64,000 nucleotides of DNA, from NCBI GenBank assembly GCA_964551375.1, contig CAZKBG010000001.1:490833-554832 (forward strand). The letters run 5' to 3'. Shown piece after piece: positions 29,404 through 38,281 of the stretch. The position numbers and the translations under genes were made by a program. Position 1 is the first letter of the stretch. The number at the start of each line of letters is the position of its first letter. The DNA comes from an uncultured archaeon. GTDB lineage: Archaea; Iainarchaeota; Iainarchaeia; Iainarchaeales; JAAZKV01. Below the pieces are notes generated by a model, which made no database searches, was not told the DNA's origin, and saw only the letters and a program-made list of their open reading frames with translations.

Positions 29404-29763
29404 TTATTCTAATTTTGCAAAATCTTTTAGTGTTTTTATCGTCCCAGAAGTCAAAAGCGGATTGATTATAACTTTCTTGTTTCTGATTTTCTCAATAAAA
29501 GCAGTGCCTGCGATTAATTCAAGCTCACGACCGCGCTTGCATTTGATTATTGCCTTGTTTCCTTTAAACAAAACAATTCTTGGATTAATTTCAGCCAAAC
29601 CCTTAGAGCCGAAGAAAGAAAGCAAATCAATCCAAAACCCAAAGTAAAAATCCTTTTCGTTAACATCCGCATTCAGCACTTCAAGAAGAATATAGCGCTT
29701 ACGCTCGCGCTTTGAAAGAGGCGTAATTGTTTTCTTTACCTTTTCAATTTTCATAAAAATCAA
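29404..29763 (-). CDS. RNase P protein subunit Pop5 (Rpp14/Rnp2)
   Basis: RERKRYILLEV ... GNKAIIKCKRG ... TSGTIKTLK aligns with archaeal Pop5 landmarks (RYI..., GNKAII, SGTIKRLK). Canonical position upstream of psmA. Confidence 0.7.
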   Translation of the reverse strand: MIFMKIEKVKKTITPLSKRERKRYILLEVLNADVNEKDFYFGFWIDLLSFFGSKGLAEINPRIVLFKGNKAIIKCKRGRELELIAGTAFIEKIRNKKVIINPLLTSGTIKTLKDFAKLE

Positions 29764-29815
29764 CCAAAAATAATTTTTCTAAAAATAATCAAACCATCAT
29801 CTGCAAAATACTAAT

Positions 29816-30379
29816 TTACTTAACCTCTTCTTCCAAATATTTTCCAGCAAGAGCATTTGGCAGCCCAAGTAAAACCGCAAGAGATTCCCTTACTTTTCTC
29901 GGCCTTAAATGAAGCGGATCCTTTGCTCCCGAAGCCACAATAAATTTAGTTCCCTTCATTTTGCAATATCTCACAACTTCAACGTAATTTTTCCAATACT
30001 GGTGCCTTTCAAAAGAATTAGCTTTCATTAACTCTTCAAACATCAAAACTACAACAGTTTTGTTGTCAGAAAGCTTTTTTGCCAATCCCAAATCAAAATT
30101 CTGCTTTGTATCAGAAGGCTGGAGAAGATAATCAGCATTAATTTTCACAGCAAATTCATTTTCTTTCAAATCAGAGCCGATAACTGCTTTCTTTTTTTTA
30201 GAAAGTTTAGAAAGCTCGCTTGGAGCAGTTTTAGTGGAAACAACAAAACAAGGAGTCATTTTAGCGTCCTTTGCCACTTTTTCCTGAGCGTCAGTATTAA
30301 CAAGCACAATTAGTTCTTCCTTGAAATAAGTGCTGACTGCTAGGAGCTCTTTGAGCGGCTGAGCATAAACTATGTCCAT
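29816..30379 (-). CDS. RNase P protein subunit Rpp30 (Rnp3), putative
   Basis: 187 aa. The C-terminal half (VVVLMFEELMKA ... YCKMKGTKFIVASGAKDPLHLRPRKVRESLAVLLGL) resembles the Rpp30 TIM-barrel C-terminus. Adjacent to Pop5 as in Methanothermobacter. Confidence 0.55.
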   Translation of the reverse strand: MDIVYAQPLKELLAVSTYFKEELIVLVNTDAQEKVAKDAKMTPCFVVSTKTAPSELSKLSKKKKAVIGSDLKENEFAVKINADYLLQPSDTKQNFDLGLAKKLSDNKTVVVLMFEELMKANSFERHQYWKNYVEVVRYCKMKGTKFIVASGAKDPLHLRPRKVRESLAVLLGLPNALAGKYLEEEVK

Positions 30380-30463
30380 TCCAAAAAAACCTTTTAGGTT
30401 AATAGCACACAGGGGAAAATAAACCTTTCCCTCGCGCGTTAAAAATGAATTCCGTGCCGGACT

Positions 30464-31060
30464 TCAGCCGTGGTGGTGGTCAAGAGATTTTTTGAATCTT
30501 ATTTTTCTCTTGTTTGTCAAGTTTGTCAACTTGTTTGCTCCGCCAGCGTAAGTCTTTCCTCTTTCAGCTCTTCCTCTTGAAGTTCCGCTTGAAAGATACT
30601 TTAAGTTCTTATCAGCCATTACAGCAGGAGCTGTTCTATCAGCTAAAACAACTTCAAAATAATGCCACTTACCGTCTTCAGCAATCTTGTATGAGCCAAG
30701 AGCTTCAGCGTTTTCGAAATACTTAGAAGCTTTCTGCTCGCTCATTGCCTGAGTGCTTAATCTTCTTGATAATTTTGCCTGACCCTGTCTCTTTGGTCTT
30801 CTCTTGTTCTTAGGCCTGTGATGAGTTCCAGTTCCTTTTCTAACTCTAACTCTAACAACAAAAACTCCCTGCTTAGCCTTGTAACCAACGCTTCTGGCAG
30901 AAACTAAATTAGTGGGGTGGTCAACTTTAACAACAGCCCTTTCTTCATTTCTAAACTCAATACCGCGCTTTCTCATGATTAACGCATAATCGTAATTCTC
31001 GTCCTTTACTCCTTTCCATTCATTTTGAAAAGCTGCTCTTATGTATTTTGCTGCACCCAT
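30464..31060 (-). CDS. rpl15e: Ribosomal protein L15e
   Basis: MGAAKYIRAAFQNEWKG ... HRPKNKRRPKRQGQ is a canonical L15e N-terminus. 198 aa. Confidence 0.9.
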   Translation of the reverse strand: MGAAKYIRAAFQNEWKGVKDENYDYALIMRKRGIEFRNEERAVVKVDHPTNLVSARSVGYKAKQGVFVVRVRVRKGTGTHHRPKNKRRPKRQGQAKLSRRLSTQAMSEQKASKYFENAEALGSYKIAEDGKWHYFEVVLADRTAPAVMADKNLKYLSSGTSRGRAERGKTYAGGANKLTNLTNKRKIRFKKSLDHHHG

Positions 31061-31127: not shown

Positions 31128-31502
31128 TTAAGGAGATTTTTTTCTAATAGCAACCCGGCGATTTGCGGCTAATTCTCTGCTTTGAACAGGTTTTGAGGAA
31201 GAAACTTTTTCTTTGCCGGATTTTGCTTGAGCAATAAACTTAATTGGAACATTAACAGGACTCTCAGAATTTTTGCCTTTAATTTTGATCTTAAAAGAAG
31301 GTTTAATCGGTTGAGAAGTTCTATCAAACCTAACAGGACTCCTTAAACCAACCTTTTTCATTGACATATTCCTTGCAGCTGCTTTTGCTATTGAAACATT
31401 TCTTTCAGAAAGGAAAAATCTGTCTGCAATGTGCTGAAAAGGATTAGGCTTTCTTTGCGCGGAAGCAGCTCTGTGATTTTGAGCGGTTCTTGTCTGAGGC
31501 AT
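31128..31502 (-). CDS. Hypothetical basic protein
   Basis: 124-aa Arg/Lys/Ser-rich ORF filling the gap upstream of L15e. No family recognised. Could be non-coding. Confidence 0.3.
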   Translation of the reverse strand: MPQTRTAQNHRAASAQRKPNPFQHIADRFFLSERNVSIAKAAARNMSMKKVGLRSPVRFDRTSQPIKPSFKIKIKGKNSESPVNVPIKFIAQAKSGKEKVSSSKPVQSRELAANRRVAIRKKSP

Positions 31503-32644: not shown

Positions 32645-32983
32645 TCATTTTCTCTTTTTAGGCTTGCTTTTGTTTTTATTTGTAAAAAAGCTGAAAAGAG
32701 GCTCGTTTGGCTCTCTAAAATGAATTTTCAAGGCTAAAACTAAAGTTGTGCCCACAACCGCAATACCATAACCCCAGATAATAGGATAATTTTCAATCAA
32801 AATACCATAAACCAGCCAAATATACGCTCCTGCGACAAAAATCAAATACGCTGTAAGGCTAATGTCTTTTGCGCTGCGATTAATCACAATTTTTCTTGCT
32901 TGAAGAATATGCGCAAAGCTCATCAAGACTCCAAACATTGTCGCAAGAAAATAGAATATTGTTGTCAACAAAGAATCCATCAA
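32645..32983 (-). CDS. Small 3-TM membrane protein (possibly PQ-loop/SemiSWEET-like) with Lys-rich tail
   Basis: 112 aa with three hydrophobic helices and a basic C-terminus (KNKSKPKKRK). Family assignment is tentative. Confidence 0.35.
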   Translation of the reverse strand: MMDSLLTTIFYFLATMFGVLMSFAHILQARKIVINRSAKDISLTAYLIFVAGAYIWLVYGILIENYPIIWGYGIAVVGTTLVLALKIHFREPNEPLFSFFTNKNKSKPKKRK

Positions 32984-32984
32984 A

Positions 32985-34667
32985 TCACTTCAAGGCTTTT
33001 TTCTCAAGCCTGTCGGTTAATTCTTTCTCAAACTTTGTCAGCTCTTCAATCTTAGCGTCAATTACAAGCGTCTTTTCCTGCAGAACCCTGTCCGCTGTGG
33101 CGTTTTTCATATTTAATTCATCAATTGCAGAATTAATCTGAGTCAAGCTCTGCTGCATACCGCTCAAAAACTGCTTTCTGAACTCGTCAAGAACCATAAT
33201 CTTCTGTTCCAATGCCTCAGGGGAAATCTTCTTGCTCACAGACTGAAGCCTGTTCAACTCAACCTGCATCTGCGCAATTAATTCATCCGCGCGCTGGATT
33301 GTAAGCTGCTCAATTCTCTGCTCCGCCTGATTCAACATTCCTTCAGCAATATTTTTTTCAAGCTCAAGAGTTTTATTTATCCTTGCATCCATCTGCGACA
33401 AGTGCGCCGATGCTGAATCAATAAAAGCCTGCGCGCTTGACTTGCTTTTAATCAATTCAGAATTCATTTCAACAACAATCTGGGCTTTTGTTCTCTTTAC
33501 TTCCTCAAGCGCAATAGTAACCTGAGAAAGAGAATGCTCCTGCTGTTTTCTTGCGCTTTCAATAGCCGCAAGATTTTCGCTCAACTGCTTGTTGTACTGC
33601 TTGATTTCAGCAATCTTAGCGTCAATTATAAAAACAATTTCCCTCTGCTTCTGCTCCAGCGCCTCTTTATTGCTTGACTGGATTAAATCCTTCTGCGAAT
33701 CCATCAAAACTTTAAACTGATACAATTCTTTTCTAACAGCCTCATCAACTTTCTGCTGAACTTGTGAATCAACATCTTCCTTTAAGTGCTTCATTTCAGC
33801 AAGCTTAGCATTCACAGCAACAACAATTCCTTTCTTCCAAAGCTCCTCAAAATCAGGGCCCATGTCAATATCCCTTGCTGTTTGAGTTGAAAGATTAAAC
33901 GAAGAAAAATCATCCGCGCTTTTTGAATTCGCAAGCTTTGTCGCAGCATCAAAATCAATTTTTGGAACAACAATATCCTTTGGAACTTCTTTCTCTTTAG
34001 GCTTCACTTCAGATTGAGCCTGAGAAGTTTGATTTTGCGCGCTTGAAGAAGTTTGCGCTTGAGGTTGAGAAGTTTGAGTAACTGCAATTTTTGAAACATC
34101 TTTCTGAACTGAAGGATTTTTCTGGGCAGGAGGAGTATAATTTTTCTGCAGATTTTTTAACGCATCGGTTGGAACAGCATTAGTTTTTGAATCAGAACCG
34201 CCTGATTTTTGCCCGCTTGCAAGAGTGTCCTCAACTTTTTCTTCAAACTCATCGCCGTCATCCATTGACTCGCCAGACTGCTCTGCAACATCCTTCATTA
34301 TTTTATCAGCAATATCCCCTTCGCTTTTTGCTTTATCTTGGGGAGAGCTTTTCACAGTAAGCCCGCTTTCAGAAGTTTTTTTTGCAATTGGAATCTGCTT
34401 TACAATCTGCTCATCCATCGGAACATCAGTTCCGTCAAACTCGGGTTTCTCAGGGCCCGCTGGTTTTTTTGCAGCTGTTTTTTGAGAAGAAGCATCAACA
34501 GGAGCATTTGCGGCTTCAACGGATTTTCTTGCTTCGGCGATCAACTGCATTGCCTCATTCTGGTCAATTCCAACATCGTACAAATTGTCGGCAATTTCTT
34601 TATCTGAAACCCCAAGAGCAATTAGCTTTTGGATAGATTCAATGACAGTAGCGCGCTTATCCATCAT
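32985..34667 (-). CDS. Large coiled-coil protein with low-complexity acidic/Ser/Gln-rich linker
   Basis: 560 aa. Short globular N-terminus (MMDKRATVIESIQKLIALGVSDKEIADNLYDVGID), then a long low-complexity linker, then heptad-repeat-rich C-terminal 300 aa. Confidence 0.5.
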   Translation of the reverse strand: MMDKRATVIESIQKLIALGVSDKEIADNLYDVGIDQNEAMQLIAEARKSVEAANAPVDASSQKTAAKKPAGPEKPEFDGTDVPMDEQIVKQIPIAKKTSESGLTVKSSPQDKAKSEGDIADKIMKDVAEQSGESMDDGDEFEEKVEDTLASGQKSGGSDSKTNAVPTDALKNLQKNYTPPAQKNPSVQKDVSKIAVTQTSQPQAQTSSSAQNQTSQAQSEVKPKEKEVPKDIVVPKIDFDAATKLANSKSADDFSSFNLSTQTARDIDMGPDFEELWKKGIVVAVNAKLAEMKHLKEDVDSQVQQKVDEAVRKELYQFKVLMDSQKDLIQSSNKEALEQKQREIVFIIDAKIAEIKQYNKQLSENLAAIESARKQQEHSLSQVTIALEEVKRTKAQIVVEMNSELIKSKSSAQAFIDSASAHLSQMDARINKTLELEKNIAEGMLNQAEQRIEQLTIQRADELIAQMQVELNRLQSVSKKISPEALEQKIMVLDEFRKQFLSGMQQSLTQINSAIDELNMKNATADRVLQEKTLVIDAKIEELTKFEKELTDRLEKKALK

Positions 34668-34780
34668 ACCACAAAACTACATAGAACTAGTTATAGTTGA
34701 TTTTTCATGAATAAAAAGGTTATGTTAAAGAGCTAAAATAAAAGAAAAAAGCTTGCCCAAAACGGGCAAGATAGCTAAAA

Positions 34781-34999
34781 TTAAGGAGAAATCATGATTA
34801 CGCTGTCTCCGCGAATCATTACTTTACCATACTTAGTCTTCATCTCTCCCTCAACTACTTGAGAGGCGTTTTCTAAATGCAGATTCATATGCACATCAAA
34901 TGCTTTTAGGGTTCCCCTAACCTGCTGATTGCCTTTTAGAACAACCAAAACTTCTTTTTCTATCGCTTCGTTCAATAAATCGAACGGTCTATTACTCAT
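34781..34999 (-). CDS. Sm-like archaeal protein (SmAP/LSm)
   Basis: 72 aa with an Sm1 motif (VLVVLKGNQQVRGTLKAFDVHMNLHLENA) and an Sm2 motif (VMIRGDSVIMI). Confidence 0.85.
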   Translation of the reverse strand: MSNRPFDLLNEAIEKEVLVVLKGNQQVRGTLKAFDVHMNLHLENASQVVEGEMKTKYGKVMIRGDSVIMISP

Positions 35000-35008
35000 G
35001 AAAACACC

Positions 35009-35794
35009 TCATTTTTTCTTAAAAATTGAAAACAACGCCTGCAAAAAGCCGCCTTTTTTAGGAGCAGTGCTTTCTGTAACCTTTAGACCAGTAAGCCTCG
35101 AAGCAATCTTCACCACTTCAACCGCAGCAGGGCAGTCAGGCTTTCTTACAATAACCGGAGAAACTTTCTCCTGCATGAAGCTCTTTCGAACTTCAGGATC
35201 ATAAGGCACAGAACCGTAAATTGGGAGCTCAAGCATATTCGCTATGTCATTTTTTGTTATTTCTCCAGTTTCATTCATCACAAAATTAACAATAACTCCA
35301 ATAACTTTAGAACCAAGCCTTTGCGCAACAATTTTAGTCTTCAACGCATCAGCAATTGCGGGCGAAGTCGGCATAGTAACAATAACAGTTTCCTGCGAAG
35401 CGCTTAACGCGCTTAAAACATTCTTTTCAATTCCAGCAGCAACATCAAGCAAAATATAATCATACTTATCAGTCAACTGGGAAACAACACTTGAGAGCCT
35501 TTCGCTATCCACTCTTTTATAATTATCAAGGCTTAATCCTGAAGGAATAAATCTAACTCCCATCGGACCGTCATAAATAGAATCATGAACCTGAGCTTCT
35601 CCCAAAAGAACATCGTGAAGAGTGATTGGAGAAGACTGCATTCCTAAAAGCAGAGAAAGATTTGCCATTGCAACATCAGCATCGATTAACAAGACTTTTT
35701 GCCCCATTTTTGAAAGAGCAATACCTAAGTTGGCAGTAATAGTAGTTTTTCCTGTTCCGCCTTTTCCTGAAGCAATTGCAATTACTCTCCCCAT
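35009..35794 (-). CDS. MinD/ParA-family P-loop ATPase
   Basis: Deviant Walker A IAIASGKGGTGKTT, LLIDAD and Walker B-like DYILLD. 261 aa. Confidence 0.85.
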   Translation of the reverse strand: MGRVIAIASGKGGTGKTTITANLGIALSKMGQKVLLIDADVAMANLSLLLGMQSSPITLHDVLLGEAQVHDSIYDGPMGVRFIPSGLSLDNYKRVDSERLSSVVSQLTDKYDYILLDVAAGIEKNVLSALSASQETVIVTMPTSPAIADALKTKIVAQRLGSKVIGVIVNFVMNETGEITKNDIANMLELPIYGSVPYDPEVRKSFMQEKVSPVIVRKPDCPAAVEVVKIASRLTGLKVTESTAPKKGGFLQALFSIFKKK

Positions 35795-35886
35795 AAAAAC
35801 ACCAAATAATGAATGAAACTTACAAATAAAAAGCTACTCTTCGGGCCCTAAAAACAAAAACCCCAAATCCTCCAAATCAATTCAAA

Positions 35887-36366
35887 TCATGCCGTCTGCG
35901 CAAGCTTCTTCTTTTCGCCGTTCTGCTTATTTGTCTGAAGCAAGCCGTTTAACTCAAAAGCAAGAGCACGAAGTTCAATATTTGATAATTCGCTTCCAGC
36001 TTTAACAATAAAAACTTTCTTTTCAAGCGGGAAAAGCATAAACCAAGAATCATTTCGCTTAATTAAAACAGATTCAGAATCAGGCATCTCGCTCTTTATG
36101 TAAGACAACATTGCTGTGCCCATAATTCCTTCAGTGTGCCCGTTGCCTTCGCTTGAAACAACCAAGCTCCCGTCAAGATTAGTTACCAAAAAAGAATCAA
36201 CCAAATGTTTTCTTTTCAAAATCATTAAGTTTTCTTCAAAATCCTGCGAATAAACATATTTATGTTTTGATAAAAAGTCTCTCAAAAAATCCAGCTGTGA
36301 GTGAGGCTTCTTAGTGTCATCATCAAGAACGCGAAGCGCGAATCTTCTTAAGACTTTGATTACCAT
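35887..36366 (-). CDS. Roadblock/LC7 (MglB-like) domain protein
   Basis: LVDSFLVTNLDGSLVVSSEGNGHTEGIMGTAMLSYIKSE ... KVFIVKAGSELSNIELRALAFEL is a good match to the Roadblock fold pattern. Confidence 0.55.
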   Translation of the reverse strand: MVIKVLRRFALRVLDDDTKKPHSQLDFLRDFLSKHKYVYSQDFEENLMILKRKHLVDSFLVTNLDGSLVVSSEGNGHTEGIMGTAMLSYIKSEMPDSESVLIKRNDSWFMLFPLEKKVFIVKAGSELSNIELRALAFELNGLLQTNKQNGEKKKLAQTA

Positions 36367-36388
36367 ACAAGCTCACCAATTAAGCACT

Positions 36389-36847
36389 CTAAATTTTTAA
36401 TTCGCCAAGACCATAAGCTTCAAGAGCGCTCTTCTGCGTCTGAGTCTTGCTAAACCTTGGCGAGAATGCTGAAGGAATGCTCTTTGGAATGTCTTTTAAA
36501 TCTATTTTATTAGTTAAAAGTTTTTCGTCAAATGCAGTAACAAGGTCAACTTGGCTTCTGGTTAAGCCAACGCACTGAAAAAAGCCCAAACCCCTTGTTT
36601 CATTGAAGAAATAAGGCAAAGCTTCAGCGCCTTTAACCGTTTTTTCAGCGCCTAAACACTCAACAATGCAGGCAAAAATCACACCATCCCTAAAAAATAG
36701 AGCCCCTTCTTCAATAAAATTGCCTTTAACAGAAAGAATGAGGTAACCGTTGAATCTATTATCCAAAAGCTCCTGAGCTTTCGCCATAAAGTCAAAAGGC
36801 ACATCTCCTTTTGCAACAACTTCCCCAACTGGAAAATTCAAACTCAC
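36389..36847 (-). CDS. Hypothetical protein, possibly a second Roadblock-like protein
   Basis: 152 aa. FNGYLILSVKGNFIEEGALFFRDGVIFACIV is loosely Roadblock-like. Same strand, 22 nt downstream of the previous gene. Confidence 0.3.
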   Translation of the reverse strand: MSLNFPVGEVVAKGDVPFDFMAKAQELLDNRFNGYLILSVKGNFIEEGALFFRDGVIFACIVECLGAEKTVKGAEALPYFFNETRGLGFFQCVGLTRSQVDLVTAFDEKLLTNKIDLKDIPKSIPSAFSPRFSKTQTQKSALEAYGLGELKI

Positions 36848-36964: not shown

Positions 36965-37576
36965 TTATTTCTTATCAGCTGAATTTTGATTCTCAACAGG
37001 AGAGGATGCTTTCTTCCCCTTCAAAAAAACCACTTTATCAGCAGTATTCTTTAACGCTGCAGCGCTCATCTCTTCAGCCACCATAGCAACAGTTTCTTTC
37101 CCTCTTTCTTTTGCTTTAATTAACGCAGGAAGAAAATCAGAATCCCTTGTTGCAAACACCAAAGTATCAATCGCATCATTAAACACAGTTTCAGTAGCAT
37201 CGCAAGCCATCACAACATCAATATCAGTAGTGGAAATTATTGGAGTAAACCCTTGATTAACCACCGCTTCAACTAACTTATCGCTCGCAAACTGATTGAG
37301 ATAAACTTTTCCAATCTTAATAATCCCAATCTTCTGCGCTTCTTTTTTTATTAAATCAAGGTCAATCCCGAGTTCCTTTCTCAAAAGATTAGGACCGTCC
37401 ACAAAAACAGCAATCTTCTTCTCATGCGACTTGCCAATCAGCTTCTTAAGTCTTGAAAGCACCAAAAACACCCAACATAATCTGATGAAAACTGAATAAA
37501 ATACTTTCCAAGAATAATTCAAGTGAATAAAAGTGATAAAATGACGGACTTTACCGAACTTGCAAAACTCAAACAA
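36965..37576 (-). CDS. NYN-domain (LabA/DUF88-like, PIN-like) protein
   Basis: KKIAVFVDGPNL ... TDIDVVMACDA ... FATRDSDFLP are hallmark NYN motifs. The annotated N-terminus overlaps the divergent AlkD-like gene by ~54 nt, so the real start is probably further downstream (non-ATG start). Confidence 0.65.
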   Translation of the reverse strand: MFEFCKFGKVRHFITFIHLNYSWKVFYSVFIRLCWVFLVLSRLKKLIGKSHEKKIAVFVDGPNLLRKELGIDLDLIKKEAQKIGIIKIGKVYLNQFASDKLVEAVVNQGFTPIISTTDIDVVMACDATETVFNDAIDTLVFATRDSDFLPALIKAKERGKETVAMVAEEMSAAALKNTADKVVFLKGKKASSPVENQNSADKK

Positions 37577-38281
37577 GAGCTTCTATTACTAAAAAACCCC
37601 GCAAAAGCAAAACTCCTGCAAGGATTCTTTAAAACAGGAAAAGGAGAATACGCAGAAGGAGACGTATTTTACGGAATACAAGTTCCAGACACGCGAATTG
37701 TAGCAAAAAAGTATTTGGATTTAAGCGAAGAAGAACTTAGCGAGCTGATAAACTCAAAAATCCACGAAGAAAGACTATGCGCGCTAGTAATTTTAGTTCA
37801 AAAAACAAAAAGCAAAAAAACAACACTTTCAAAAAGAGAAAAAATGTTTGAATTTTACCTAAAAAACACTAAACATATAAACAACTGGGACTTGGTTGAC
37901 TTAAGCGCCCCAAGAGTAATGGGCGAGTACTTATATTTGGCGAGAAAAGAAGGAAAAGACGAAACAAAAATCCTTTACACTCTCGCAAAATCAAGCAACT
38001 TATGGGAAAAAAGAATATCCATCCTCTCCACAGCATATTTTATAAGCAAAAAAGAATACCAGCACACCATAAAAATCTCAGAAATCCTGCTAAACGATAC
38101 CCACGACTTAATGCACAAAGCAGTAGGATGGATGCTTCGCGAAATCGGCAAGCGAAATTTGGAAGTTGAAGAAGAGTTCTTGAAAAAACACTATAAAAAA
38201 ATGCCCAGAACCATGCTAAGATACGCAATAGAAAAATTCCCTGAACAGAAACGACAATCCTACCTCAAAGGGACAATTTAA
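37523..38281 (+). CDS. DNA alkylation repair enzyme (AlkC/AlkD-like HEAT-repeat glycosylase family)
   Basis: KAKLLQGFFKTGKGEYAEGDVFYGIQVPDTR ... WDLVD ... AVGWMLREIG ... LRYAIEKF matches the DNA_alkylation family layout. Confidence 0.8.
   Translation: MNKSDKMTDFTELAKLKQELLLLKNPAKAKLLQGFFKTGKGEYAEGDVFYGIQVPDTRIVAKKYLDLSEEELSELINSKIHEERLCALVILVQKTKSKKTTLSKREKMFEFYLKNTKHINNWDLVDLSAPRVMGEYLYLARKEGKDETKILYTLAKSSNLWEKRISILSTAYFISKKEYQHTIKISEILLNDTHDLMHKAVGWMLREIGKRNLEVEEEFLKKHYKKMPRTMLRYAIEKFPEQKRQSYLKGTI

What the first reader, a model, noticed from the sequence alone, without database searches (positions are those of the whole stretch)
32985..36847. Sm, MinD/ParA-ATPase and Roadblock module next to a 560-aa coiled-coil protein
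Five consecutive minus-strand genes: a giant coiled-coil protein with a long acidic/Ser/Gln linker, an Sm-like protein, a MinD/ParA deviant-Walker-A ATPase, a clear Roadblock/LC7 (MglB-like) protein, and a second small protein with a Roadblock-like pattern. Roadblock proteins classically partner small Ras-like GTPases (MglA/MglB). Here the only NTPase is a ParA/MinD-type ATPase. This suggests an undescribed ATPase plus Roadblock positioning/polarity switch, possibly acting with the coiled-coil filament-like protein in division or cell-surface organisation.
Basis: partly seen in the sequence, partly recalled or inferred. Interest (0 to 1): 0.55.

Follow-up and report, generated by a model that had tools for sequence, protein, structure and literature searches.

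The report
MinD operon with PATAN and Roadblock partners
In this small uncultured (DPANN) archaeon, a membrane-binding MinD positioning ATPase sits in a conserved operon with a PATAN-like protein and a Roadblock-fold protein, which makes these two the first concrete candidates for the unknown partner proteins of archaeal MinD.

Summary
The five minus-strand genes exist as described. The Sm protein and the archaeal MinD ATPase are confirmed by sequence.

- **159-aa protein (35887-36366):** it has no Pfam match, but its AlphaFold model matches Roadblock, LAMTOR and MglB structures. It is a Roadblock-fold protein.
- **152-aa protein (36389-36847):** it is not Roadblock-like. It is a divergent DUF2226/PATAN-like protein with no solved structural relative.
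- **Conservation:** the order DUF2226, Roadblock, MinD, Sm, usually preceded by an NYN gene, is kept with very short gaps in 49 Iainarchaeota species genomes and in a second lineage of 13 metagenome loci.
- **Core pair:** in Micrarchaeota and other distant archaea the DUF2226-MinD pair persists while the Roadblock gene is absent and the flanking genes differ. DUF2226 plus MinD is therefore the core, and Roadblock is a lineage-restricted accessory.
- **Coiled-coil protein:** it is confined to Iainarchaeota, is separated from Sm by a terminator-like hairpin, and is only loosely linked.

PATAN plus Roadblock plus MglA GTPase neighbourhoods are already known. Here a MinD ATPase takes the NTPase position.

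I found no paper describing this. The function is inferred, not shown. I class it as a new variant of a known kind, of moderate interest.

The parts
36965..37576 (-). NYN-domain protein (TIGR00288 family), probably the first gene of the operon. The true start is likely near 37440.
   Evidence: PF01936 E 1.2e-22. TIGR00288 scores 183 bits against a cutoff of 178. It lies directly upstream of the DUF2226 gene in most loci (median gap 15 nt). Homologues are 152-159 aa.
36389..36847 (-). PATAN-like DUF2226-family protein ('p5', 150-152 aa). It is the invariant upstream neighbour of MinD. The start is probably TTG at 36841.
   Evidence: The window protein scores sub-threshold on PF09987 (11.8 bits). 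Of 37 homologues, 28 hit DUF2226 and 15 hit DUF4388. Distant relatives score 40-48 bits against a cutoff of 22. AlphaFold2 pLDDT is 88. There is no PDB fold match.
35887..36366 (-). Roadblock/LC7-fold protein ('p4', 159 aa) with an N-terminal basic amphipathic helix (residues 2-14).
   Evidence: AlphaFold2 model. Foldseek matches to LAMTOR2, Roadblock and MglB at probability 1.0. No Pfam hit. Hydrophobic moment 0.76 against a protein mean of 0.26.
35009..35794 (-). Archaeal MinD ATPase with a deviant Walker A and a C-terminal amphipathic motif resembling a membrane-targeting sequence (GFLQALFSIFKKK).
   Evidence: TIGR01969 E 2.6e-88. The P-loop and C-terminal motif are conserved in all loci. 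Hydrophobic moment 0.61.
34781..34999 (-). Sm/LSM protein. It lies 9 nt after MinD and is probably co-transcribed.
   Evidence: PF01423 E 3.8e-23. The median MinD-Sm gap is 6 nt, and many pairs overlap by 4 nt. Sm follows MinD in Micrarchaeota and other lineages.
34752..34770 (-). Terminator-like hairpin plus T-run just after Sm. It is the probable 3' end of the operon.
   Evidence: Read directly from the sequence and found by the pattern scan. The number of such sites in the region is not above chance.
32985..34667 (-). Iainarchaeota-specific 560-aa protein with a conserved roughly 45-aa N-terminal helical domain, a variable low-complexity linker and a conserved helical C-terminal domain. It is probably a separate transcription unit.
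   Evidence: No Pfam, NCBIfam or PDB relative. Orthologues lie 0-4.2 kb downstream of Sm in Iainarchaeota. It was not seen in other lineages.

Best explanation
This is a conserved DPANN-archaeal operon: NYN, DUF2226/PATAN-like, Roadblock-fold, MinD, Sm. Its functional core is a MinD-type positioning ATPase and a PATAN-like partner protein.

Proposed mechanism:
1. ATP-bound MinD dimers bind the membrane through the C-terminal amphipathic helix. The motifs are shown; membrane binding is inferred.
2. The PATAN-like protein, and in Iainarchaeota and at least one other lineage the Roadblock-fold protein, bind MinD. They act as its regulator and/or cargo adaptor, in the role MinE/MinC play for bacterial MinD or MglB plays for MglA. 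This would set where a membrane-associated machine is placed, either the FtsZ/SepF divisome or a pilus-type surface structure.
3. The basic amphipathic N-terminal helix of the Roadblock protein and the conserved C-terminal 'YGLGELK' tail of the PATAN-like protein are the candidate contact or ATPase-stimulating peptides. This is inferred.

Sm and NYN are probably co-transcribed RNA-metabolism genes and not parts of the machine. The downstream coiled-coil protein is at most a lineage-specific scaffold or cargo.
For: - Domain identities: MinD, Roadblock fold, PATAN/DUF2226.
- Gene order and co-orientation hold in all 49 GTDB species loci. Median gaps are 21, 58 and 6 nt, and many genes overlap by 4 nt.
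- The same five-gene string occurs in a second lineage of 13 metagenome loci plus L056 and L059. There MinD is only about 43% identical and p5 about 25% identical to the window.
- DUF2226-MinD adjacency survives where the flanking genes differ completely: Micrarchaeota L054, and L057, L060, L061, L062.
- The MinD P-loop and its C-terminal amphipathic basic motif are conserved in all of these loci.
- Published precedents. PATAN genes neighbour MglB/MglA genes (PMC4316618). PATAN response regulators bind the pilus motor PilB1 (bioRxiv 10.1101/2021.06.11.447907). PatA binds the divisome proteins ZipN and SepF (PMC7380572). ParA/MinD ATPases generally need a partner that stimulates hydrolysis. No partner of archaeal MinD has been established (PMC11588486).
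Against: - There is no experimental or co-folding evidence of any interaction.
- The whole neighbourhood (eIF5A, NYN ... Sm, PP-loop ATPase, L15e, RNase P subunits) is syntenic. Part of the linkage may therefore be inherited gene order beside the RNase P/exosome superoperon.
- Sm is as tightly linked to MinD as DUF2226 is, yet has no obvious role in positioning.
- The Roadblock gene is absent in several lineages that keep DUF2226-MinD.
- The window's own p5 is below the Pfam threshold for DUF2226.
- T-rich, TATA-like sequence between p4 and MinD may mean MinD also has its own promoter.
- The cargo is unknown, and no FtsZ or SepF gene lies in the window.
Confidence: 0.5

Rival explanations
1. 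The gene order is inherited and has no shared function. These compact DPANN genomes keep an old string of unrelated housekeeping genes (NYN, DUF2226, Roadblock, MinD, Sm) next to the RNase P/exosome superoperon. MinD works alone or with unlinked partners.
For: Wide synteny around the cluster within Iainarchaeota. Sm and NYN are RNA-related genes embedded in the same string. RNase P, L15e, proteasome and SBDS/Rrp4 genes lie adjacent.
Against: DUF2226-MinD adjacency persists in lineages where both flanks differ. Gaps are very short or the genes overlap. PATAN and Roadblock are both known NTPase-associated adaptor domains.
Confidence: 0.25
2. The PATAN-like and Roadblock proteins regulate a small Ras-like (MglA/Arf-type) GTPase encoded elsewhere in the genome, as in classical PATAN-MglB-MglA modules. 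The adjacency to MinD is incidental, or MinD is a downstream effector.
For: Roadblock proteins classically pair with small GTPases, and PATAN genes neighbour mglA/mglB. Only 64 kb of a genome of about 0.95 Mb could be inspected.
Against: No GTPase-like ORF occurs in the window. None appears among the called genes of the nine distant loci whose gene calls were read. MinD is the NTPase in every locus except the most distant PATAN relative, L058.
Confidence: 0.12
3. The module serves RNA metabolism. MinD with its PATAN and Roadblock partners localises or organises an RNA-processing assembly involving the NYN nuclease and the Sm protein at the membrane.
For: NYN and Sm flank the module and are conserved with it across lineages. 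TatD often lies upstream.
Against: No precedent was found. L054 and L057 lack NYN, and L057 lacks Sm. Sm is a general RNA chaperone found in nearly all archaea.
Confidence: 0.08

Closest known systems
MglA-MglB(-PATAN) polarity modules of bacteria and some archaea
   Same: A Roadblock-fold protein and a PATAN-family protein are encoded beside a P-loop NTPase. Such neighbourhoods are documented (Makarova et al. 2006 as cited in PMC4316618).
   Different: The NTPase here is a MinD/ParA-type deviant-Walker-A ATPase, not a Ras-like GTPase. p4 has no detectable sequence similarity to MglB or PF03259. The Roadblock gene is dispensable in several lineages.
Bacterial MinCDE system
   Same: A MinD ATPase with a deviant Walker A and a C-terminal amphipathic membrane-targeting motif. 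Small partner proteins are encoded in the same operon. The Roadblock protein carries an N-terminal amphipathic helix reminiscent of the MinE N-terminus.
   Different: No MinC or MinE homologues. The partners have unrelated folds (PATAN-like and Roadblock). Oscillation and FtsZ inhibition are untested.
Archaeal MinD paralogues of Haloferax volcanii (MinD4, MinD2)
   Same: Archaeal MinD family. MinD4 has a C-terminal membrane-targeting sequence. They position motility and chemotaxis machinery rather than the divisome. Their partners are unknown.
   Different: The haloarchaeal genes are not reported with PATAN or Roadblock neighbours. The MinD2 operon partner HVO_0596 gave no phenotype.
Dip system (DipA GTPase, DipB, DipC) of FtsZ-using archaea
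   Same: A three-protein membrane-associated NTPase positioning system: a small regulator detaches the NTPase from the membrane, and a third protein has a long disordered region (PMC13228585). The logic is analogous.
   Different: The protein families are unrelated (GTPase, DUF2073/SepF-like, Zn-ribbon). Among DPANN, Dip is reported only in Nanohaloarchaeota, which leaves room for another system in Iainarchaeota.
Cyanobacterial PATAN-REC response regulators (PatA, PixG, PixE)
   Same: The PATAN domain acts as a protein-protein adaptor to the divisome (ZipN, SepF) or to the pilus motor ATPase PilB1.
   Different: p5 has no REC domain and belongs to the archaeal DUF2226 branch. Its partner would be MinD.

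Membership tests
Roadblock/LC7 (PF03259) - for the 159-aa protein | alpha-beta-beta-alpha-beta-beta-beta(-alpha) Roadblock fold | tested here: met
   AlphaFold2 secondary-structure order H43-52, E58-63, E68-71, H77-93, E100-104, E107-114, E117-123, H129-158. Foldseek top hits are LAMTOR2/p14, Asgard Roadblock, dynein Roadblock and MglB, with E from 7e-7 to 1e-4 and probability 1.0.
Roadblock/LC7 (PF03259) - for the 159-aa protein | Sequence match to the Pfam Robl_LC7 model | tested here: not met
   No PF03259 hit at E<=1 for the window protein or for any of 38 family members. A profile search against PDB sequences found nothing.
Roadblock/LC7 (PF03259) - for the 152-aa protein | Roadblock fold or sequence similarity | tested here: not met
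   A different topology (b-a-b-b-b-b-a-b-a) at pLDDT 88. No Roadblock entry among the Foldseek hits listed, best E 0.45. hhalign against the p4 family gives probability 10%.
MglA/MglB-type polarity module | A Ras-like small GTPase (MglA) partnered with the Roadblock protein | tested here: not met
   No ORF with a P-loop plus NKxD/DxxG GTPase motifs in the 64-kb window. None among the called genes of the nine related loci outside Iainarchaeota whose gene calls were read. The rest of the genome could not be searched.
Archaeal MinD (TIGR01969) | Score above the curated cutoff, plus a deviant Walker A KGGxGK[ST] | tested here: met
   295.4 bits against a cutoff of 201.75. SGKGGTGKTT at residues 9-18.
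Membrane-binding MinD (Min-system type) | C-terminal amphipathic membrane-targeting helix | tested here: met
   GFLQALFSIFKKK at the extreme C-terminus, hydrophobic moment 0.61 against a mean of 0.26. The motif is conserved in all lineages. Actual membrane binding was not tested.
Bacterial MinCDE system | MinC and/or MinE partner genes | tested here: not met
   No MinC or MinE family hit among the neighbouring gene products.
DUF2226 (PF09987) / PATAN (PF14332, DUF4388/PatA_N) - for the 152-aa protein | Match to the Pfam model above the gathering score | tested here: inconclusive
   The window protein scores 11.8 bits against a cutoff of 22. Of 37 homologues, 28 hit DUF2226 (best E 5e-6) and 15 hit DUF4388 (best E 4e-5). 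More distant relatives, linked to the window by the family profile at E<=1e-20, score 40-48 bits. Membership therefore rests on transitive homology.
Sm/LSM (PF01423) | LSM domain above the gathering score | tested here: met
   81.4 bits against 23.4. NF001963 scores 100.7 against 101, which is borderline.

The most novel reading that the evidence does not exclude
The DUF2226/PATAN-like protein is the missing MinE/MinC-like partner of an archaeal MinD, with the Roadblock-fold protein as co-regulator in some lineages. Together they would form a self-organising, membrane-based ATPase patterning or polarity system that positions the divisome or a surface machine in DPANN archaea. This would be an NTPase swap, MinD in place of MglA, within the ancient PATAN-Roadblock regulatory module.
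Probability: 0.25. Interest if true: 0.75.

Novelty: new variant of a known kind. Interest (0 to 1): 0.55.

Why it matters
Archaeal MinD proteins are widespread. In the literature I read, their regulators have not been identified: the equivalents of MinE, MinC or ParB are still missing.

A tightly conserved operon that pairs one MinD clade with a PATAN-like protein, and often a Roadblock-fold protein, gives specific candidates that can be tested biochemically.

It would also show that the PATAN/Roadblock regulatory pair is not tied to Ras-like GTPases. That would extend Koonin and Aravind's idea that Roadblock proteins are general NTPase regulators.

DPANN lineages other than Nanohaloarchaeota are reported to lack the Dip divisome-positioning system. 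This module is therefore a plausible alternative spatial organiser in these very small cells.

Tried and rejected
- **Sequence searches of both small proteins against PDB sequences**, as single sequences and as profiles: no significant hits.
- **Pfam and NCBIfam on the Roadblock-fold protein and its family**: nothing relevant. Its assignment therefore rests on the predicted fold alone.
- **Third homologue search, using a p5 profile**: returned only Iainarchaeota-like sequences in its top 120. The wider reach came from the exhaustive representative search.
- **Metagenome scans with diverse DUF2226 alignments:** A five-sequence alignment worked.
- **Both small proteins being paralogous Roadblock proteins:** rejected.
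- **The coiled-coil protein belonging to a known family:** no Pfam, NCBIfam or PDB support. The weak latrotoxin hit (E 4e-4) covers one helical stretch, and I treat it as compositional.
- **FtsZ or SepF in the window:** none, although both lie near the cluster in L004.
- **Rfam:** only two tRNAs in the window.
- **Bacterial-type promoter and terminator scan:** counts no higher than in shuffled sequence. Only the position of the hairpin after Sm is suggestive.
- **Literature:** 'DUF2226' gave zero papers. 'PATAN domain' plus 'MinD' gave only two cyanobacterial motility reviews.


Full report
**What is there.** The window comes from a low-GC DPANN archaeon of the Iainarchaeota (Diapherotrites). 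Near-identical proteins occur in MAGs labelled Candidatus Iainarchaeum or Diapherotrites, and the window's own 159-aa protein sits on a 946-kb contig. At 32985-36847 there are five consecutive minus-strand ORFs of 560, 72, 261, 159 and 152 aa.

- The 72-aa protein is a canonical Sm/LSM protein (PF01423, E 3.8e-23).
- The 261-aa protein is an archaeal MinD. TIGR01969 scores 295 bits against a cutoff of 201.75. It carries the deviant Walker A SGKGGTGKTT and a C-terminal basic amphipathic motif, GFLQALFSIFKKK, with hydrophobic moment 0.61 against a protein mean of 0.26. This motif resembles bacterial MinD membrane-targeting sequences.

**The two small proteins.** Neither hits Pfam or NCBIfam significantly, and neither matches PDB sequences.

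- For the 159-aa protein (p4), an AlphaFold2 model built on 36 homologues has pLDDT 74. It shows a low-confidence N-terminal extension followed by an a-b-b-a-b-b-b-a core at residues 43-150. Foldseek against the PDB returns 108 hits at E<=1e-3. The top of the list is made up of LAMTOR2/p14, Asgard and Streptomyces Roadblock proteins, dynein Roadblock/LC7 and Myxococcus MglB, at probability 1.0. None of 38 family members hits PF03259 even at E<=1. The Roadblock assignment is therefore correct but rests on the predicted fold.
- For the 152-aa protein (p5), the model is confident (pLDDT 88) and has a different topology. It has no PDB match; the best E is 0.45.
- Scanning its family shows that 28 of 37 members hit DUF2226 (PF09987, best E 5e-6) and 15 of 37 hit DUF4388/PatA_N, the PATAN domain (best E 4e-5).
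- More distant relatives found with the family profile exceed the DUF2226 gathering score, at 40-48 bits against 22.
- p4 and p5 are not related to each other (hhalign probability 10%).

**Conservation within the phylum.** A scan of one genome per GTDB species returned 49 loci. All are Iainarchaeota-type; one is labelled Micrarchaeota.

- Wherever the contig extends far enough, the order p5, p4, MinD, Sm is kept on one strand.
- Median intergenic gaps are 21, 58 and 6 nt, and many genes overlap by 4 nt.
- An NYN-domain gene (TIGR00288 family) precedes p5 with a median gap of 15 nt in 36 loci. eIF5A lies divergently upstream.
- In the window a hairpin plus T-run follows Sm at 34770-34752. The probable operon is therefore NYN, p5, p4, MinD, Sm, and the 560-aa gene is a separate unit.

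**Conservation beyond the phylum.** An exhaustive profile search of 1.84 billion representative proteins found only 268 relatives of p5 at E<=1e-3. Those carrying names are Micrarchaeota, Norongarragalinales, Diapherotrites or unclassified archaea.

| Loci | Gene arrangement |
|---|---|
| Micrarchaeota L054/L055 | DUF2226, MinD, Sm; no Roadblock gene; entirely different flanks (S15, S3Ae, SpoU upstream; asparaginase downstream) |
| L057 | DUF2226, MinD only |
| L060, L061 | NYN, DUF2226, MinD, Sm |
| L062 | DUF2226, an unassigned 135-aa ORF, MinD, Sm |
| L056, L059 and 13 JGI metagenome loci (second lineage) | NYN, DUF2226, Roadblock-like, MinD, Sm, wherever the contig extends far enough; MinD about 43% and p5 about 25% identical to the window |
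| L058 (most distant hit) | A double-PATAN protein among Cache/HAMP genes; no MinD |

The invariant pair is therefore DUF2226 plus MinD. Roadblock is an accessory found in at least two divergent lineages. Sm almost always follows MinD.

**The 560-aa protein.**
- It has a strongly conserved roughly 45-aa N-terminal helical domain (consensus MDKxxxVIDSIKKLLxLxVSDxEIIxNLxDVGIxKxxAxxLIxEAK).
- A variable linker rich in K, S, D, A and Q follows. The C-terminal domain is conserved, Pro-poor and rich in E, K, L and Q.
- It has no Pfam, NCBIfam or PDB relative.
- Orthologues lie 0 to 4.2 kb downstream of Sm in Iainarchaeota. They were not seen in the other lineages.
- Its link to the module is positional and weak.

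**Mechanism.** What is shown is the domain identities, the conserved motifs and the conserved operon. What is inferred from established knowledge is as follows.

- ParA/MinD ATPases dimerise with ATP, bind a surface, and need a partner protein that stimulates hydrolysis and couples them to cargo. For MinD the surface is the membrane, reached through a C-terminal amphipathic helix.
- Roadblock proteins are dimeric NTPase regulators or platforms, such as MglB and Ragulator.
- PATAN domains are protein-protein adaptors. They bind the pilus motor PilB1 and the divisome proteins ZipN and SepF. Their genes neighbour mglB and mglA.

I therefore propose that p5, and where present p4, are the regulators or adaptors of this MinD. 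They would form a membrane-based positioning module for the divisome or a surface machine.

The p4 N-terminus, IKVLRRFALRV, has the strongest amphipathic moment in the protein (0.76). It has low pLDDT, as expected for a helix that folds on binding. The conserved p5 C-terminal tail is the other candidate contact peptide.

No small GTPase is encoded in the window. None appears among the called genes of the nine distant loci I read.

**Rivals.**
1. The order is inherited synteny beside the RNase P/exosome superoperon. Rpp14, p30 and L15e lie at 29404-31060, and L056 shows the full superoperon next to Sm.
2. p4 and p5 serve an unlinked MglA-like GTPase.
3. The module organises RNA metabolism together with NYN and Sm.

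The persistence of DUF2226-MinD where the flanks change argues against the first rival. It does not exclude it.

**Comparison and novelty.** PATAN + Roadblock + MglA neighbourhoods are known, and so are MinD systems with MinE and MinC. I found no paper describing a MinD with PATAN-like or Roadblock partners: 'DUF2226' returned zero papers, and 'PATAN domain' plus 'MinD' returned only cyanobacterial reviews. Papers on Haloferax MinD2 and MinD4 report no established partner. The recently described Dip system uses unrelated proteins and, among DPANN, is reported only in Nanohaloarchaeota. I class the finding as a new variant of a known kind. It is a well-supported comparative-genomic prediction whose function is untested.

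Noticed in passing
L048:10461-12764 and L052:10483-12786: In two related genomes the MinD ORF is 767 aa, and its sequence diverges immediately after the P-loop (GKGGVGKS|LAYDE...). This is probably an intein inserted in the Walker A motif of MinD.
   Followed up: no
window 36841-36847: The PATAN-like ORF starts at GTG 36847, but all homologues begin MNFPVG. That corresponds to TTG at 36841, so the real protein is probably 150 aa.
   Followed up: partly
window 36965-37576: The NYN ORF has a roughly 45-aa N-terminal extension that is absent from homologues (152-159 aa). The extension overlaps the divergent DNA-alkylation-repair gene (37523-38281). The true start is probably near 37440, which would leave a short divergent promoter region.
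   Followed up: partly
window 29404-31060; L056:8302-12606: RNase P subunits Rpp14 and p30 and ribosomal protein L15e lie just downstream of the cluster. In L056 the MinD-Sm cluster directly abuts L10e, L15e, RNase P, proteasome alpha, SBDS and Rrp4. This is the archaeal exosome/RNase P superoperon.
   Followed up: partly
protein P0301: A 5048-aa protein from the representative library matches positions 38-75 of the p5 profile in 55 separate stretches. It looks like a giant repeat protein built from a PATAN-like hairpin element, or a compositional artefact.
   Followed up: no
window 31128-31502: A 124-aa, very basic ORF (rich in K, R and S) with no Pfam hit lies between L15e and the PP-loop ATPase gene.
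   Followed up: no
L004:1692-2036 and L004:8165-9238: In one distant Iainarchaeota genome, SepF and FtsZ genes lie within 5 kb of the DUF2226-Roadblock-MinD-Sm cluster. Neither is in the present window.
   Followed up: partly
L001:8310-9140, L059:5838-6530, and the MCM genes at the ends of L001 and L004: Free-standing LAGLIDADG homing-endonuclease ORFs sit right after the Sm gene in some relatives, and intein-containing MCM genes lie nearby. Mobile selfish elements are frequent around this locus.
   Followed up: no
window 32645-32983: A SemiSWEET-type transporter gene starts 1 nt after the stop of the 560-aa gene, so the two are probably co-transcribed.
   Followed up: no
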